A DNA stretch of 64,000 nt from the NCBI RefSeq assembly GCF_003334255.1, contig NZ_QOWU01000012.1; one strand, written 5' to 3'. Made by a program: the position numbers and the translations under genes. Within the stretch, counting starts at the first letter, position 1. Each line of letters begins with the position of its first letter. Below the pieces are notes generated by a model, which saw nothing but the letters and a program-made list of their open reading frames with translations, made no database searches and was not told where the DNA came from. The stretch is from Escherichia coli (GTDB taxonomy: Bacteria; Pseudomonadota; Gammaproteobacteria; Enterobacterales; Enterobacteriaceae). Shown one piece after another: positions 2,865 to 60,561 of the stretch.

Positions 2865-3653
2865 TTATTTCAGTTCGAGTTCGTTCATTGCAGCAATGCT
2901 GAAACCGCCGTCAACGTGGACCACTTCACCGGAGATACCGGCAGAGAGATCGGAGCACAGGAATGCCGCAGAGTTACCCACATCTTCAATAGTAACGGTA
3001 CGGCGAATCGGGGTAACGGCTTCGCAATGAGCCAGCATTTTGCGGAAGTCTTTGATACCGGAGGCCGCCAGAGTACGGATCGGACCAGCAGAGATGGCGT
3101 TAACACGCACACCTTCCGGACCCATCGCGTTCGCCATATAGCGCACGTTCGCTTCCAGAGACGCTTTTGCCAGACCCATAACGTTGTAGTTCGGGATAGC
3201 GCGCTCAGCGCCAAGGTAGGAAAGGGTCAGCAGGGCAGAACCCGGATTCAGCATGGAGCGGCAAGCTTTTGCCATTGCAACGAAGCTGTAGGAGCTGATG
3301 TCGTGGGCAATTTTGAAGCCTTCACGGGTAACGGCGTTAACATAGTCACCATCCAGCTGATCGCCAGGTGCAAAACCAATAGAGTGTACGAAACCGTCAA
3401 ATTTCGGCCAAACTTTCCCCAGTTCAGCGAACATGGTGTCGATGCTGGCATCTTCTGCAACATCGCACTGCAGAACGATGTCAGAACCCAATTGAGCGGC
3501 AAATTCTTCTACGCGGCCTTTCAGTTTGTCGTTCTGGTAGGTGAATGCCAGTTCAGCTCCTTCGCGGTGCATCGCCTGAGCGATACCGTAGGCGATGGAT
3601 AGTTTGCTGGCAACACCGGTTACCAGAATGCGCTTACCGGAAAGAAAACCCAT
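2865..3653 (-). CDS. fabI: Enoyl-ACP reductase (NADH) FabI
   Basis: 262 aa, [40 protein letters not shown]...; full-length match to the FabI family. Gene order rnb-yciW-fabI matches E. coli. Confidence 0.96.
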
Positions 3654-3775
3654 AGCTTTAATCCTTATTGTTGATGCTTGTTGTGCCTGAAAATCAGGCG
3701 ATTCGTCGTTTTAGTAAACAGTACGAACAGATAAACGGTTATTATAATCAACCTGGCTGTGAGTAGCTATAGTTG

Positions 3776-3860
3776 CCAGGTCCGACCGGAGCAGGCTGCG
3801 GCAGGGGGGGCGCTTTTCCCCTCACCCTAACCCTCTCCCCAGAGGGGCGAGGGGACCGTA
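3776..3860. repeat. GC-rich imperfect palindromic intergenic repeat, boxC-like (ccctcaccctaaccctctccccagaggggcgagggg)
   Basis: Palindromic G/C tracts cccctc...gagggg. It resembles the boxC family of E. coli intergenic repeats from memory; not verified. Confidence 0.45.
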
Positions 3861-4268
3861 TTGTGCAAATATTGTTACCCCAGCAACAAACAGGCTCATA
3901 CAGCCCCTAACCCTTTCATGGCGATGGCTGGGACGGTTCAGACCTTGCCGAATATTCTCCAGCACCGTCTCCTCATTACAATCAATCTCGTTATTCCAGA
4001 AACGCAGCACGGTCCAGCCCTGCGACTCAAGCCAGCTAGTGCGCCTGGAATCATAGGCAACTGCTAAATCATGCTGCCCACCATCCAGCTCAACGACTAC
4101 ACGCGCCGAGCAGCAAGCAAAATCGAGAATGTAGCTCCCCACTGGATGTTGACGGCGAAATTTGAAATCACTAAAACGTCGGCTGCGAAGATATCGCCAG
4201 AGCTTTCGTTCCTGCAAAGTGAGATTGCGTCTTAAATCACGCGCATTTGATTTAATTTTATCTATCAC
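3822..4268 (-). CDS. ycjD: DUF559 (Vsr-like fold) protein YcjD. GTG start. The C-terminal tail reads into the boxC-like repeat.
   Basis: ORF MIDKIKSNARDLRRNLTLQERKLWRYLRSRRFSDF.... The ORF is 148 aa, against 117 aa annotated in K-12. The last ~30 codons are encoded by repeat sequence. Confidence 0.75.
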   Translation of the reverse strand: MIDKIKSNARDLRRNLTLQERKLWRYLRSRRFSDFKFRRQHPVGSYILDFACCSARVVVELDGGQHDLAVAYDSRRTSWLESQGWTVLRFWNNEIDCNEETVLENIRQGLNRPSHRHERVRGCMSLFVAGVTIFAQYGPLAPLGRGLG

Positions 4269-4308
4269 CTCATTCTGACAAGATTTAATCTTTTGTCAGA
4301 ATGAGGTG
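4265..4308. repeat. Perfect 16-bp inverted repeat (cacctcattctgacaa / ttgtcagaatgaggtg) with a 12-nt loop, between the sapF stop and the ycjD start
   Basis: Seen directly in the sequence. The left arm contains the ycjD GTG start (4268-4266). It lies 28 bp downstream of the sapF stop. Confidence 0.7.
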
Positions 4309-4335
4309 AATAATCTGGAAGGAGGATTCAGAAAA

Positions 4336-5142
4336 TTAGCGATCTTTACGCCACGCATCCGCCGTCAATGCCTCGCCAAAATGACCGGCAATCAGCCGTT
4401 TGGTGAGTTCATGCAGCGGCGATGCCAGCACATCCGCGGTGCTGCCTCGCTCGACAACCTCGCCCTGATGCATCACCAGCACCTGGTCGCTAATGTGCTT
4501 CATCATTCCGATATGCTGGGTAACATAAATATACGAAATGCCCTGTTTTTCCTGTAATTCCAGCATCAGATTAATCAACTGCGAACGCATCGACATATCC
4601 AGTGAAGCGAGGGCTTCATCGGCAATAATGACTTTTGGGCGCAATATCAGCGCGCGCGCCAGACCCAGACGCTGTTTTTGTCCGGGTGCCAACATATGCG
4701 GATAGTAACTGACGTGATCCGGTAGCAGCCCAACCATACGCATCGTTTCAATAATCTGTTTGCGACGCTGTTCCGGTTCCAGGTCGGTGTTCAGGCGCAG
4801 TGGAAAATCCAGAATTTGCGAGATACGTTGACGGGGATTCAACGAGGTCGAAGGATCCTGAAAAATCATGCGAATACGCTGACTGCGGAAGGAATAATCG
4901 CCAAAATGCAGTGGATGATCGTCAATCAATAACTCGCCGCTGGTAGGCTCTATCATTCCCGCCAGCATTTTTGCCAGCGTGGATTTACCCGAACCATTCT
5001 CGCCAATAATCGCCAGTGTCTGGCCTTCACGTAGCGTAAAGCTCAAGGGTTTTACCGCTTCTACGGTCTGACGACGAAACCAGCCGGTCCGGTAGCGGAA
5101 CGTTTTACTTAAATTACGCACTTCAAGCAGCGTTTCGATCAT
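4336..5142 (-). CDS. sapF: Peptide/putrescine ABC transporter ATP-binding protein SapF
   Basis: 268 aa with Walker A GENGSGKST. Position in the sapABCDF operon. Confidence 0.93.
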   Translation of the reverse strand: MIETLLEVRNLSKTFRYRTGWFRRQTVEAVKPLSFTLREGQTLAIIGENGSGKSTLAKMLAGMIEPTSGELLIDDHPLHFGDYSFRSQRIRMIFQDPSTSLNPRQRISQILDFPLRLNTDLEPEQRRKQIIETMRMVGLLPDHVSYYPHMLAPGQKQRLGLARALILRPKVIIADEALASLDMSMRSQLINLMLELQEKQGISYIYVTQHIGMMKHISDQVLVMHQGEVVERGSTADVLASPLHELTKRLIAGHFGEALTADAWRKDR

Positions 5143-56960: not shown

Positions 56961-56967
56961 AACTGCA

Positions 56968-57062
56968 TAAAAAAATAGAGTCTGTCGACATCCGCCAGAC
57001 TCTATAGTACACACAGCAGTGCATCCGCGTCTTAAGTCCGGCATTGTCTCCTCTGCGCCGGT
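56968..57062 (-). ncRNA. mcaS: McaS (IsrA) small regulatory RNA, 95 nt
   Basis: Reverse complement reads ACCGGCGCAGAGGAGACAATGCCGGACTTAAGACGCGGATGCACTGCTGTGTGTACTATAGAGTCTGGCGGATGTCGACAGACTCTATTTTTTT. The terminator hairpin plus U-run is present. Location is the abgR-smrA spacer, as in K-12. Confidence 0.85.
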
Positions 57063-60439: not shown

Positions 60440-60561
60440 GCAGGTGAATGCAACGTCAAGCGATGGGCGTTGCGCTCCATATTGTCTTACTTCCTTTTTT
60501 GAATTACTGCATAGCACAATTGATTCGTACGACGCCGACTTTGATGAGTCGGCTTTTTTTT
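60440..60561 (+). ncRNA. fnrS: FnrS small regulatory RNA, 122 nt
   Basis: GCAGGTGAATGCAACGTCAAGCGATGGGCGTTGCGCTCCATATTGTCTTACTTCCTTTTTTGAATTACTGCATAGCACAATTGATTCGTACGACGCCGACTTTGATGAGTCGGCTTTTTTTT matches FnrS. The terminator gccgactttgatgagtcggc plus T8 is present. Confidence 0.88.

What the first reader, a model, noticed from the sequence alone, without database searches (positions are those of the whole stretch)
3822..3860. ycjD reading frame runs into a boxC-like palindromic repeat
The last ~30 codons of the 148-aa ORF (…GPLAPLGRGLG) are encoded by the GC-rich repeat. This suggests the repeat inserted into, or replaced, the native 3' end and changed the C-terminus relative to the 117-aa K-12 annotation.
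Basis: inference. Interest (0 to 1): 0.25.

Follow-up and report, generated by a model that had tools for sequence, protein, structure and literature searches.

The report
ycjD tail: collapsed duplication beside BoxC
The longer ycjD reading frame in this E. coli strain comes from a 106-base deletion that removed the normal stop codon, not from insertion of the BoxC repeat; separately, genes of this nuclease family turn out to be flanked by BoxC-type repeats in many bacterial phyla.

Summary
The window is E. coli (100% identical to strain NCTC86): fabI, ycjD, sapF. The 148-aa ycjD ORF is real and stops at a TGA inside a BoxC element (3818-3853, minus strand). That element is identical to catalogued copy TMECO no. 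9 of K-12. Only the last 10 codons lie in the repeat, not about 30.

The repeat did not insert: it is identical in K-12. K-12 instead has 106 extra bases, one unit of a diverged tandem duplication of the ycjD 3' end plus its own degenerate BoxC, which holds the K-12 stop. In this window the duplication collapsed within a 23-bp identical stretch. Translation then runs through the frame-shifted relic copy to the next BoxC.

The allele occurs in 40 of 5426 complete genomes. An independent collapse on another haplotype occurs in 4 more. The extension is predicted disordered, and PGAP calls the gene a pseudogene.

Beyond the finding: ending in a BoxC-type motif is the native state of DUF559 genes. 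Across 80 loci from many phyla, inverted triplex motifs bracket the gene. Close PriA relatives show filled, empty and solo-motif sites. The unit also sits in frame inside Mfd, PriA, ValRS and HsdM. I found no paper describing this link.

The parts
3818..3853 (-). BoxC / PIT / TMECO element (type A with one mismatched triplet), three blocks: CCCTCGCCC-CTCTG-GGGAGAGGG-TTA-GGGTGAGGG(G). It is identical to TMECO no. 9 of K-12 MG1655 and lies 165 bp upstream of the fabI start.
   Evidence: Identical in K-12. BoxC was first reported from the envM (= fabI) sequence (reference 46 of PMC4666352).
3822..3824 (-). TGA stop codon of the 148-aa ORF, inside block 3 (GGG TGA GGG) of the BoxC element.
3822..4268 (-). 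148-aa ycjD ORF of the NCTC86/HS type: DUF559 core plus a 41-residue non-native tail after ..VLENI.
   Evidence: exact protein = ABV05734.1 of E. coli HS and AQT99080.1 of NCTC86, seen on 202 contigs. PGAP annotates it as a pseudogene 'missing C-terminus' in NCTC86.
3939..4268 (-). DUF559 (Vsr-like PD-(D/E)XK nuclease) core, residues 1-110, intact.
   Evidence: Pfam 162.9 bits against a cut-off of 20.6. PDB 3HRL E=1.6e-26. AF2 pLDDT 85-96 over the core. Foldseek hits: 3HRL, then I-Bth0305I, then Vsr. All family-invariant residues are present.
3950..3972 (.). Deletion junction: the single remaining copy of the 23-bp exact repeat GAATATTCTCCAGCACCGTCTCC. It is part of a 39-nt repeat (3934-3972) that K-12 carries twice, 106 bp apart.
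3854..3949 (-). Relic second copy of the ycjD 3' end (..RQGLNR..) plus spacer. Here it is translated as RQGLNRPSHRHERVRGCMSLFVAGVTIFAQYG.
   Evidence: Alignment of six E. coli alleles. Tandem duplication confirmed in N96 and GN04592. Read-through proteins P0009, P0010 and P0012 show the relic once ended ..NIRQGLNHHSLSPQPSP*.
3903..3932 (-). Decayed triplex motif of the relic copy (gene sense CCCAGCCATCGCCATGAAAGGGTTAGGGGC). A 13-nt loss relative to allele GN04592 puts its TGA out of frame.
   Evidence: (direct repeat CCCTAACCCTTTC / CCCTAACCCTCTC)
3892..3906 (-). Weak terminator-like hairpin (GGGCTGTATGAGCCT + GTTTGTTGCT) that follows the motif in each duplicated unit. It now lies inside the extended ORF.
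   Evidence: (consensus match only)
4265..4309 (.). 17-bp perfect inverted repeat with an 11-nt loop, between the sapF stop and the ycjD start. It overlaps the GTG start codon. There is no BoxC-type motif on this 5' side.

Best explanation
The 148-aa frame is a by-product of the collapse of a small tandem duplication.

How the locus is built:
- In E. coli lineages that carry ycjD, the last ~13 codons of the gene, the BoxC-type triplex motif that normally holds its stop codon, and about 30 bp of downstream DNA are present twice in tandem (unit about 106-119 bp).
- In the K-12 lineage both copies have decayed. Copy 1 lost 12 nt of its motif, giving ..LNRRSPSP*. Copy 2 lost 13 nt, so its TGA is out of frame.

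What happened here:
- In the lineage of this window (NCTC86, HS, ST167-like strains), recombination or replication slippage within the 23-bp identical stretch of the two copies deleted 106 bp.
- The deleted segment included copy 1's motif and the native stop.
- The intact DUF559 core is now fused to copy 2's remnant. It is read in a register that has no stop until the TGA inside the next BoxC element (TMECO no. 9, upstream of fabI).
- That BoxC element did not move.

Consequence: the 41-residue tail is most likely a non-functional, disordered appendage on an otherwise intact Vsr-like nuclease domain.

Shown: the deletion, its repeat junction, the duplication, its recurrence, and the identity of the BoxC element.
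Inferred: the molecular route (slippage versus RecA-dependent crossover) and the lack of function of the tail.
For: - Window and K-12 are identical over 701 bp apart from one 106-bp gap, which is flanked in K-12 by a 39-nt direct repeat at 90% identity, 23 nt exact.
- The K-12 stop lies in the deleted segment, inside CCCTCGCTCTTTCAGGGAGAGGG. This matches the first two blocks of type-B TMECO no. 10 with one mismatch.
- Six-allele alignment and repeat finder: GN04592 has a 110-nt unit repeated at a spacing of 119 bp. Its copy 1 ends ..SPSPQPSP*, and its relic reads ..NIRQGLNHHSLSPQPSP*. N96 has two copies at 83-90% identity.
- The collapsed allele is a single 100% BLAST piece in exactly 40 of 5426 complete genomes. 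All the other top hits need two pieces spanning 307 bp.
- I built the same collapse in silico on the B1-type haplotype. It exists in 4 further genomes at 99.0-99.5% identity, so the event is recurrent. It matches the 147-aa protein P0002.
- Syntenic Klebsiella-type orthologues and other enterobacterial homologues stop in the motif directly after the domain, so the K-12-like arrangement is the older one.
- AF2 gives pLDDT 37-62 and no secondary structure for residues 112-148.
- PGAP calls the gene a pseudogene in NCTC86.
- Holder et al. report that TMECO loci are unusually variable among E. coli strains.
Against: - Nothing tested here shows whether the 148-aa product is made or is inactive. The core keeps all invariant residues, so the protein could be fully active.
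- The allele has persisted in a clade that includes HS, NCTC86 and ST167-like strains, so it is at least not strongly deleterious.
- I did not build a genome phylogeny, so 'one event for the 40 genomes' is inferred only from their identical 201-bp sequence.
- Protein P0011 (..ENILQELNRPSHRHERV..) suggests a further crossover register that I did not trace to DNA.
Confidence: 0.9

Rival explanations
1. One reading: a BoxC repeat inserted into, or replaced, the native 3' end of ycjD in this strain, creating the longer C-terminus.
For: The ORF does terminate inside a BoxC element. BoxC loci are known to be variable.
Against: - The BoxC element and everything between it and position 3949 are identical in K-12, which has the 117-aa gene.
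- The only difference is 106 bp missing from the window.
- No target-site duplication or repeat presence/absence separates the alleles.
Confidence: 0.03
2. The window form is the ancestral single-copy state, and K-12-type strains gained the 106 bp by a later duplication or insertion.
For: - A duplication must once have arisen from a single-copy state.
- The repeat structure alone does not give the direction of an indel.
Against: - The window's downstream segment is not a pristine 3' end. It carries the same decayed, 13-nt-deleted motif and the same substitutions as K-12's relic copy.
- Homologues in other genera stop in a motif directly after the domain.
- Duplicated units occur in all divergent E. 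coli lineages examined, including N96 at dS 0.49.
- The single-copy form is rare (44 of 5426 genomes). It sits on two different haplotypes, each identical to a common duplicated haplotype.
Confidence: 0.05
3. The extended tail is a selected, functional new C-terminus, for example a membrane-anchoring or regulatory segment. It contains the hydrophobic stretch CMSLFVAGVTIFAQY.
For: - The allele has persisted in a clade and been reported on 202 contigs.
- A similar tail arose independently on a second haplotype.
- The hydrophobic stretch is visible directly in the sequence.
Against: - AF2 gives very low confidence and no helix for residues 118-141.
- The tail is translated from a frame-shifted relic, a spacer and a repeat.
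- The allele is rare (about 1.3% of ycjD-bearing genomes).
- Recurrence is expected from the repeat structure alone.
- A terminator-like hairpin lies inside the extension.
Confidence: 0.07

Closest known systems
BoxC / PIT / TMECO intrastrand-triplex repeats of E. coli (Bergler et al. 1992; Hoyne et al. 2000; Holder et al. 2015, PMC4666352)
   Same: The element at 3818-3853 is literally catalogued copy no. 9. It fits the consensus CCCTCNCCC-N3-6-GGGNGAGGG-N3-GGGNGAGGG. The surrounding strain variability matches the reported instability of these loci.
   Different: - Holder et al. describe the elements as always intergenic, without linked gene functions and without any mobile-element association.
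- Here the element carries the stop codon of an ORF.
- A second, degenerate copy carries the K-12 ycjD stop.
- The motif is systematically linked to DUF559 genes.
Deletion between short direct repeats, or collapse of a tandem duplication (slipped-strand mispairing or unequal crossover; established knowledge)
   Same: The deleted segment is bounded by direct repeats. One repeat copy is left at the junction. The event recurs independently.
   Different: The two duplicated units had diverged, so the collapse does not restore the original gene. It produces a chimeric, extended reading frame.
eefRABCD / ycjD alternative haplotypes between fabI and sapF (PMC12817139)
   Same: Same locus. That paper reports ycjD (354 nt) in phylogroups A, B1 and C, and a form 12 nt longer in ST69 and ST182. 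I see the eef side as a TetR regulator plus RND genes in L003 and L004, and the 12-nt-longer form in GN04592.
   Different: That paper does not mention BoxC motifs, the tandem duplication or the 106-bp-deleted 148-aa allele.
REP elements and their RAYT transposases (REPINs). Recalled from my own knowledge, not tested here.
   Same: A short palindromic interspersed repeat family whose copies flank, in inverted orientation, a single-copy gene for a small nuclease-type enzyme. This is the analogy for the DUF559 and BoxC-motif pairing.
   Different: - RAYTs are HUH tyrosine transposases, whereas DUF559 has a Vsr-like PD-(D/E)XK fold.
- No activity of DUF559 on the motifs has been shown.
- REPs are not known to carry their enzyme as an in-frame insertion into host genes.
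Vsr-like (EDxHD) homing endonucleases such as I-Bth0305I (Dassa et al. 2009, PMC2677866; Taylor et al. 2011)
   Same: - Same fold clade. The second-best structural match of the YcjD model is the I-Bth0305I catalytic domain, and Steczkiewicz et al. group VSR and DUF559 together.
- Those endonuclease genes also interrupt DNA-metabolism genes.
   Different: - Those enzymes are larger, phage-borne, and sit in introns, split inteins or fractured genes.
- The DUF559 units here are about 110 aa, chromosomal, flanked by triplex motifs, and read through in frame.
- Pfam detects no intein domain in them.
Rickettsia palindromic elements (in-frame selfish repeats in protein-coding genes; Ogata et al. 2000). 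Recalled from my own knowledge.
   Same: Palindromic repeats tolerated as in-frame insertions in essential genes. A Rickettsiales ValRS gene carries both a motif-DUF559-motif unit and a gene-less motif pair in frame.
   Different: Rickettsia palindromic elements encode no enzyme and are not triplex motifs.

Membership tests
BoxC / PIT / TMECO repeat | Three-block consensus CCCTCNCCC-N3-6-GGGNGAGGG-N3-GGGNGAGGG | tested here: met
   3818-3853 (minus strand) matches over all 36 nt and equals Table 1 entry no. 9.
BoxC / PIT / TMECO repeat | Interspersed multicopy family in the E. coli chromosome | tested here: met
   - The 41-nt part of the query matched additional places in every genome, median 4 places per genome by megablast (e.g. 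H40).
- 23 copies are listed for MG1655.
- Only one copy lies in this 64-kb window.
BoxC / PIT / TMECO repeat | Intergenic location | tested here: inconclusive
   The element is intergenic in K-12. In this strain the last 10 codons and the stop of the extended ORF overlap it.
BoxC / PIT / TMECO repeat | Formation of an intrastrand purine-motif triplex | not testable with these tools
   Shown in vitro for TMECO oligonucleotides by Holder et al., but not in vivo.
DUF559 (PF04480), Vsr-like PD-(D/E)XK nuclease | Profile match above the curated cut-off over the whole domain | tested here: met
   162.9 bits against 20.6; residues 4-110 match profile positions 2-108 of 109.
DUF559 (PF04480), Vsr-like PD-(D/E)XK nuclease | Fold of the solved family member and of Vsr | tested here: met
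   3HRL by sequence, E=1.6e-26. Foldseek: 3HRL TM 0.83, I-Bth0305I 0.74, Vsr 0.53.
DUF559 (PF04480), Vsr-like PD-(D/E)XK nuclease | Family-invariant residues (e.g. D49, E60, D62, H66, R89, W91, N92) retained | tested here: met
   These columns are invariant in an 18-sequence alignment that includes the window protein.
DUF559 (PF04480), Vsr-like PD-(D/E)XK nuclease | Nuclease activity and its substrate | not testable with these tools
   None of the papers I retrieved and read characterised a DUF559 protein biochemically.
Direct-repeat-mediated deletion / tandem-duplication collapse | The undeleted allele has direct repeats at both ends of the missing segment, and the deleted allele keeps exactly one copy | tested here: met
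   39-nt repeat (23 nt exact) at a spacing of 106 bp in K-12; a single copy at 3934-3972 in the window.
Direct-repeat-mediated deletion / tandem-duplication collapse | The repeats are parts of a longer duplicated unit | tested here: met
   110-nt unit in GN04592; 58-60-nt pieces at 83-90% identity in N96.
   The BoxC at 3818-3853 is identical in K-12.
Mobile element with terminal inverted repeats or homing-endonuclease gene (for the motif-DUF559-motif unit; not claimed for the E. coli copy) | Inverted repeats at both ends of the gene | tested here: met
   - 43 of 80 loci have a 5' motif, 41 of 80 a 3' motif, and 31 both, in opposite orientations (46:11 and 41:10).
- Motif density is 4.2 and 5.3 per kb at the gene ends, against 0.10 per kb elsewhere.
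- Within-locus arm identity is 0.87, against 0.75 between loci, p=3e-13.
- Caveat: the last result could partly reflect genome-specific motif families.
Mobile element with terminal inverted repeats or homing-endonuclease gene (for the motif-DUF559-motif unit; not claimed for the E. coli copy) | Filled and empty sites among close relatives | tested here: met
   PriA of Gastranaerophilales, at one site, with flanks 83-90% identical: 70 clusters lack any motif signature (most are short and empty, some carry an unrelated 16-aa repeat), 46 carry the unit, one has a solo motif and one a gene-less motif pair.
Mobile element with terminal inverted repeats or homing-endonuclease gene (for the motif-DUF559-motif unit; not claimed for the E. 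coli copy) | Copies in one genome share homology only between the repeat ends | tested here: met
   One genome only: L013 and L068 align from the 5' motif to the 3' motif and not beyond.
Mobile element with terminal inverted repeats or homing-endonuclease gene (for the motif-DUF559-motif unit; not claimed for the E. coli copy) | Target-site duplication | tested here: inconclusive
   None is evident at the PriA site, but only one site was compared and the sequences are 10-17% diverged.
Mobile element with terminal inverted repeats or homing-endonuclease gene (for the motif-DUF559-motif unit; not claimed for the E. coli copy) | Both ends present at the E. coli ycjD copy | tested here: not met
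   There is no motif between sapF and the ycjD start in E. coli or in syntenic Klebsiella-type loci. Motifs lie only on the 3' side.
Intein | Hint / splicing domain flanking the in-frame endonuclease | tested here: not met
   Pfam finds only the host domains plus DUF559 in the ValRS, PriA, Mfd, HsdM and other fusions.

The most novel reading that the evidence does not exclude
BoxC / PIT / TMECO triplex motifs are not orphan repeats. They are the terminal inverted repeats, or the homing sites, of a widespread small selfish element whose full form encodes the DUF559 (Vsr-like) nuclease.

Under this reading:
- The solo motifs and A/B inverted pairs scattered in E. coli and many other genomes are gene-less derivatives, comparable to MITEs or REPINs.
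- E. coli ycjD is a one-ended, resident copy, and the only candidate enzyme partner of the 23 or so BoxC copies.
- The unit can sit in frame inside essential genes (PriA, Mfd, ValRS), because the motifs translate into Pro/Ser/Gly-rich linkers (PSPxPSPxxGEG).
Probability: 0.5. Interest if true: 0.8.

Novelty: new variant of a known kind. Interest (0 to 1): 0.5.

Why it matters
For the finding as written, little is at stake. It explains an annotation discrepancy (117 aa, 148 aa, or 'pseudogene') at one E. coli locus, and gives a clean worked example of how BoxC-rich DNA generates strain variation.

The wider observation matters more. BoxC elements were first reported in 1992 from the envM (fabI) sequence. 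Holder et al. (2015) found no consistent function among flanking genes and no link to mobile elements, and earlier work they cite found no promoter or terminator activity.

A statistically strong, cross-phylum link between these motifs and one small nuclease family turns 'what are BoxC elements and how do they spread' into a bench experiment: does YcjD/DUF559 bind or cut BoxC DNA? It also gives thousands of 'DUF559 domain-containing protein' annotations a concrete hypothesis.

It would also flag a class of in-frame domain insertions in PriA, Mfd, ValRS and restriction-modification subunits that resemble inteins in host choice but lack a splicing domain.

Tried and rejected
- Looked for further BoxC copies in the window. 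None found, so no local array.
- Rfam scan of the whole window. Nothing at the locus; only frnS and McaS elsewhere.
- Looked for a BoxC-type motif on the 5' side of E. coli ycjD and in the eef-type haplotype junction (L004 4015-4491). None. The E. coli copy is therefore not a complete two-ended unit, and the ycjD/eef boundary is not at a motif.
- Searched for a target-site duplication at the PriA filled, solo and empty sites. None evident.
- Asked whether DUF559 is plasmid cargo. It is rare: 44 of 72,556 records, mostly megaplasmids or mislabelled chromosomes. Plasmid spread is not the explanation.
- Considered an intein explanation for the in-frame units. Rejected, because no Hint domain is present.
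- Considered that the 148-aa ORF might be an assembly artefact. Rejected: 40 independent complete genomes and 202 contigs carry it.
- Literature searches (DUF559; boxC; intrastrand triplex + endonuclease; ycjD; Vsr + in-frame/mobile) found no paper linking DUF559 to BoxC. Absence from this library is not proof of absence.
- Searches were script errors, and one search was a rejected repeat-finder call (wrong strand argument). All were rerun and have no bearing on the results.

Full report
**1. What is at the coordinates**

The window around the finding is the E. coli fabI, ycjD, sapF segment. The genes are fabI at 2865-3653 (minus), a 148-aa ORF at 3822-4268 (minus), and sapF at 4336-5142 (minus).

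Over 3640-4340 the window is 100% identical to E. coli NCTC86. The ORF has a complete DUF559 domain at residues 4-110 (162.9 bits). It matches PDB 3HRL by sequence. Its AlphaFold model is confident for residues 1-111. Its best structural matches are 3HRL, then the catalytic domain of the homing endonuclease I-Bth0305I, then Vsr.

**2. The repeat**

Read on the minus strand, 3818-3853 is CCCTCGCCCCTCTGGGGAGAGGGTTAGGGTGAGGGG. This is exactly entry no. 9 (type A, one mismatched triplet, MG1655 1,351,239-1,351,204) in Table 1 of Holder et al. 2015. That paper treats TMECO, PIT and BoxC as names for the same element.

The consensus pattern occurs once in the 64-kb window, against none in 100 shuffles. 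BoxC was first reported from the envM sequence, and envM is fabI. This copy, 165 bp upstream of fabI, is therefore very probably the founding one.

The 'boxC-like' label is correct. The ORF's TGA (3822-3824) lies in block 3 of the element. Only the last 10 codons (PLAPLGRGLG) overlap the repeat, not about 30.

**3. What differs from K-12**

A K-12 derivative (NEB Turbo) carries the 354-nt, 117-aa ycjD. Over 701 bp the two sequences are identical except for 106 bp present in K-12 and absent from the window. The BoxC element and everything between it and position 3949 are the same.

In K-12 the 106 bp sit between two copies of a 39-nt direct repeat at 90% identity, with a 23-nt exact core GAATATTCTCCAGCACCGTCTCC. 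The window keeps one copy, at 3934-3972.

The K-12 stop codon lies inside the 106 bp, in CCCTCGCTCTTTCAGGGAGAGGG|TGA. This sequence matches the first two blocks of type-B TMECO no. 10 with one mismatch. The K-12 C-terminus (..LNRRSPSP*) is therefore itself encoded by a degenerate BoxC.

**4. Origin of the repeat structure**

I aligned six E. coli alleles in gene orientation and ran the repeat finder. Both show that the locus holds a tandem duplication of the last ~13 codons of ycjD, its triplex motif and about 30 bp beyond.

- GN04592 has a 110-nt unit at a spacing of 119 bp. Copy 1 ends ..LNRLSPSPQPSP* in a complete three-block motif. Copy 2 would read ..NIRQGLNHHSLSPQPSP*.
- The deeply diverged N96 allele has two copies at 83-90% identity.
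- In the K-12 lineage, copy 1 has lost 12 nt of its motif. This is the '12-nt' difference noted for ST69 and ST182 in PMC12817139.
- In the same lineage, copy 2 has lost 13 nt, which puts its TGA out of frame.

The window allele is the collapse of this duplication by an exchange inside the 23-nt identical stretch. The DUF559 core then continues into copy 2's frame-shifted remnant (RQGLNRPSHRHERVRG) and the spacer (CMSLFVAGVTIFAQYG). It stops only at the TGA in TMECO no. 9.

**5. Population data**

- Of 5426 complete E. coli genomes, 3377 carry the ycjD 3' region.
- Exactly 40 have the collapsed allele as a single 100% match. They include NCTC86, HS, several ST167-like clinical isolates, G1/2 and RM9088.
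- I predicted the same collapse on the B1-type haplotype of strain 2013C-4225 by joining its two repeat copies in silico. That sequence exists in four more genomes at 99.0-99.5% identity in one piece. It corresponds to the 147-aa protein P0002 and to variants labelled Shigella dysenteriae and Shigella boydii. The event has therefore happened at least twice.
- The exact 148-aa protein is already in GenBank (ABV05734.1 from HS, AQT99080.1 from NCTC86), on 202 contigs. The 117-aa form is on at least 1000 contigs.
- PGAP annotates the NCTC86 gene as a pseudogene 'missing C-terminus'.
- The remaining roughly 2050 genomes have TetR and RND efflux genes instead of ycjD. This is the published eefRABCD alternative.

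**6. Direction and consequence**

The collapsed form cannot be the pre-duplication ancestor. Its downstream part is K-12's decayed relic, base for base. In addition, enterobacterial homologues, including syntenic Klebsiella-type loci, stop in a motif directly after the domain.

The tail is predicted to be unstructured (pLDDT 37-62). It also contains a weak terminator-like hairpin, which is a consensus match only.

The core is under purifying selection between deep alleles: dN/dS is 0.17 at dS 0.49 for K-12 versus N96, although their FabI proteins are identical. ycjD is therefore, or was recently, a working gene. Whether the tailed form works was not testable here.

**7. Why a ycjD frame meets a BoxC at all**

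Among the 120 best homologues, nearly all enterobacterial proteins end in the invariant ..(L)PSPRPSP*, while the residues just before it vary. These come from Enterobacter, Klebsiella, Kluyvera, Lelliottia, Phytobacter, Scandinavium, Franconibacter and others.

PSPRPSP is the translation of CCCTCACCCCGGCCCTCTCCC. That is the reverse complement of blocks 2 and 3 of a type-B TMECO. Read-through variants continue ..WKGEGE, which is block 1.

I fetched 80 DUF559 loci from species genomes of many phyla, using only core-domain peptide patterns. I scanned them with a strict three-block motif finder.

- Motif density is 4.2 per kb just upstream of the gene and 5.3 per kb at its 3' end, against 0.10 per kb in the rest of the same loci.
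- Orientation is biased: 46:11 upstream and 41:10 downstream, in opposite senses.
- 43 loci have the upstream motif, 41 the downstream one, and 31 both.
- The two arms of a locus are more alike (0.87) than arms from different loci (0.75; Mann-Whitney p=3e-13).
- The motif sequence itself varies among taxa (CCCTCTCCC, CCCCTCCCC or CCCTTCCCCC types) while the three-block plan is kept.

An independent sample gave the same picture. I searched 1.84 billion representatives with the domain alone, which returned 24,557 hits. Motif-encoded peptides occur in the flanks of 79 of the 145 hits examined, and in none of their cores.

Caveats:
- The 80 loci were ranked by tblastn to the full 148-aa query, which may slightly favour loci with 3' motifs.
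- The 'elsewhere' control is mostly coding DNA.
- Arm similarity could partly reflect genome-specific motif families.

**8. Signs that the motif-DUF559-motif unit moves**

- Two copies in one Rickettsiales genome align only from the outer edge of the 5' motif to the outer edge of the 3' motif.
- At least nine of the 80 loci have the unit in frame inside a host gene: Mfd, PriA (three times, in different classes), ValRS, HsdM, HsdS, an Eco57I/MmeI-type methylase and a YgiQ-like radical-SAM protein. Pfam finds no intein domain in any of them.
- For the Gastranaerophilales PriA I retrieved 120 close relatives whose flanks are 83-90% identical. All the variation sits at one site just before the Walker A motif. 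70 clusters show no motif signature, 46 carry the unit, one has a solo motif in frame, and one has a gene-less motif pair. Some of the 70 carry an unrelated 16-aa tandem repeat at the same site. The DNA of four of these states was compared, and no target-site duplication was evident.
- In K-12, four of the five solo BoxC A/B pairs have the same 'plus then minus' arrangement as the arms around DUF559 genes. This is what internal-deletion derivatives would look like.
- The E. coli ycjD copy has motifs only on its 3' side.

**9. What is known and what is not**

Already described:
- BoxC/PIT/TMECO and its link with strain variability.
- DUF559 as a Vsr-clade PD-(D/E)XK domain.
- Vsr-like homing endonucleases.
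- The ycjD/eef alternative.

Holder et al. state that TMECO is always intergenic. They also found no association with mobile elements or with particular flanking gene functions. I found no paper connecting DUF559 with these motifs.

The allele-level explanation is ordinary. The family-level association is, as far as I could check, undescribed, and it is directly testable.

**10. Verdict**

- Observation: partly confirmed.
- Interpretation: partly supported. There is a real, repeat-associated C-terminal polymorphism, but it arose by deletion and collapse, not by insertion of this BoxC.
- The finding itself deserves a low score.
- The overall interest of 0.5 reflects the well-supported but mechanistically unproven DUF559 and BoxC-motif partnership that it points to.

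Noticed in passing
L005-L084 (80 DUF559 loci from genome contigs); window 3818-3853 as the local instance: DUF559 genes across many phyla are bracketed by inverted three-block triplex (BoxC-type) motifs. Motif density at the gene ends is 40-50 times that of the rest of the same loci, orientation is biased, and the two arms co-vary. In Enterobacteriaceae the gene ends in an invariant motif-encoded ..PSPRPSP*.
   Followed up: yes
L078 2293-4923 (PriA, Gastranaerophilales); relatives P0163-P0282; L089, L090, L091: At one PriA site just before Walker A, close relatives are empty, carry motif-DUF559-motif in frame, carry a solo motif, or carry a gene-less motif pair. This is a filled/empty/solo polymorphism.
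   Followed up: yes
L013 1630-6009 (Mfd), L068 2320-5499 (ValRS), L051 and L037 (PriA), L026 (HsdM), L021 (HsdS), L074 (Eco57I/MmeI-type methylase), L062 (radical SAM): The DUF559 unit sits in frame inside essential or DNA-metabolism genes, with no intein domain detected. The ValRS gene also has a second, gene-less motif pair in frame.
   Followed up: partly
P0216-P0257 (PriA relatives of L078): The same PriA site carries, in other relatives, a 16-aa tandem repeat (GQEGKLISDEEEQRAG) in 2 to 7 copies. The site is a hypervariable insertion hot spot.
   Followed up: no
L003, L004 (E. coli O157:H7 1130, TUM18780); window 3777 onward: About 2050 of 5426 E. coli genomes have a TetR regulator plus RND efflux genes instead of ycjD between fabI and sapF. 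Homology with the window ends at 3776, 42 bp before the BoxC. This is the published eefRABCD/ycjD alternative (PMC12817139).
   Followed up: partly
L085 (E. coli N96), ycjD 571-933: The N96 ycjD allele is only 86% identical in DNA to the window (dS 0.49, dN/dS 0.17), although its FabI protein is identical to K-12's. This points to a deeply diverged or introgressed allele at a hypervariable locus.
   Followed up: partly
window 4265-4309: A 17-bp perfect inverted repeat (TCACCTCATTCTGACAA / TTGTCAGAATGAGGTGA, 11-nt loop) lies between sapF and ycjD and overlaps the ycjD GTG start. Promoter-like hexamers lie inside it on both strands. It may be the sapF terminator.
   Followed up: no
window 60440-60557 (+) and 56967-57062 (-): Rfam gathering-score matches to the sRNAs FnrS (family frnS) and McaS/IsrA, as expected for this part of the E. 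coli chromosome.
   Followed up: no
fold search of model mca15a2b5ee8a: Several apicomplexan and ciliate mitoribosomal large-subunit proteins (9i05, 9g6k, 6z1p) appear as structural neighbours of the DUF559 fold.
   Followed up: no
P0011 (106 aa, ENA): A protein reading ..ENILQELNRPSHRHERV.. implies a third collapse register, with the crossover in CTGAACCG rather than in the 23-nt stretch.
   Followed up: no
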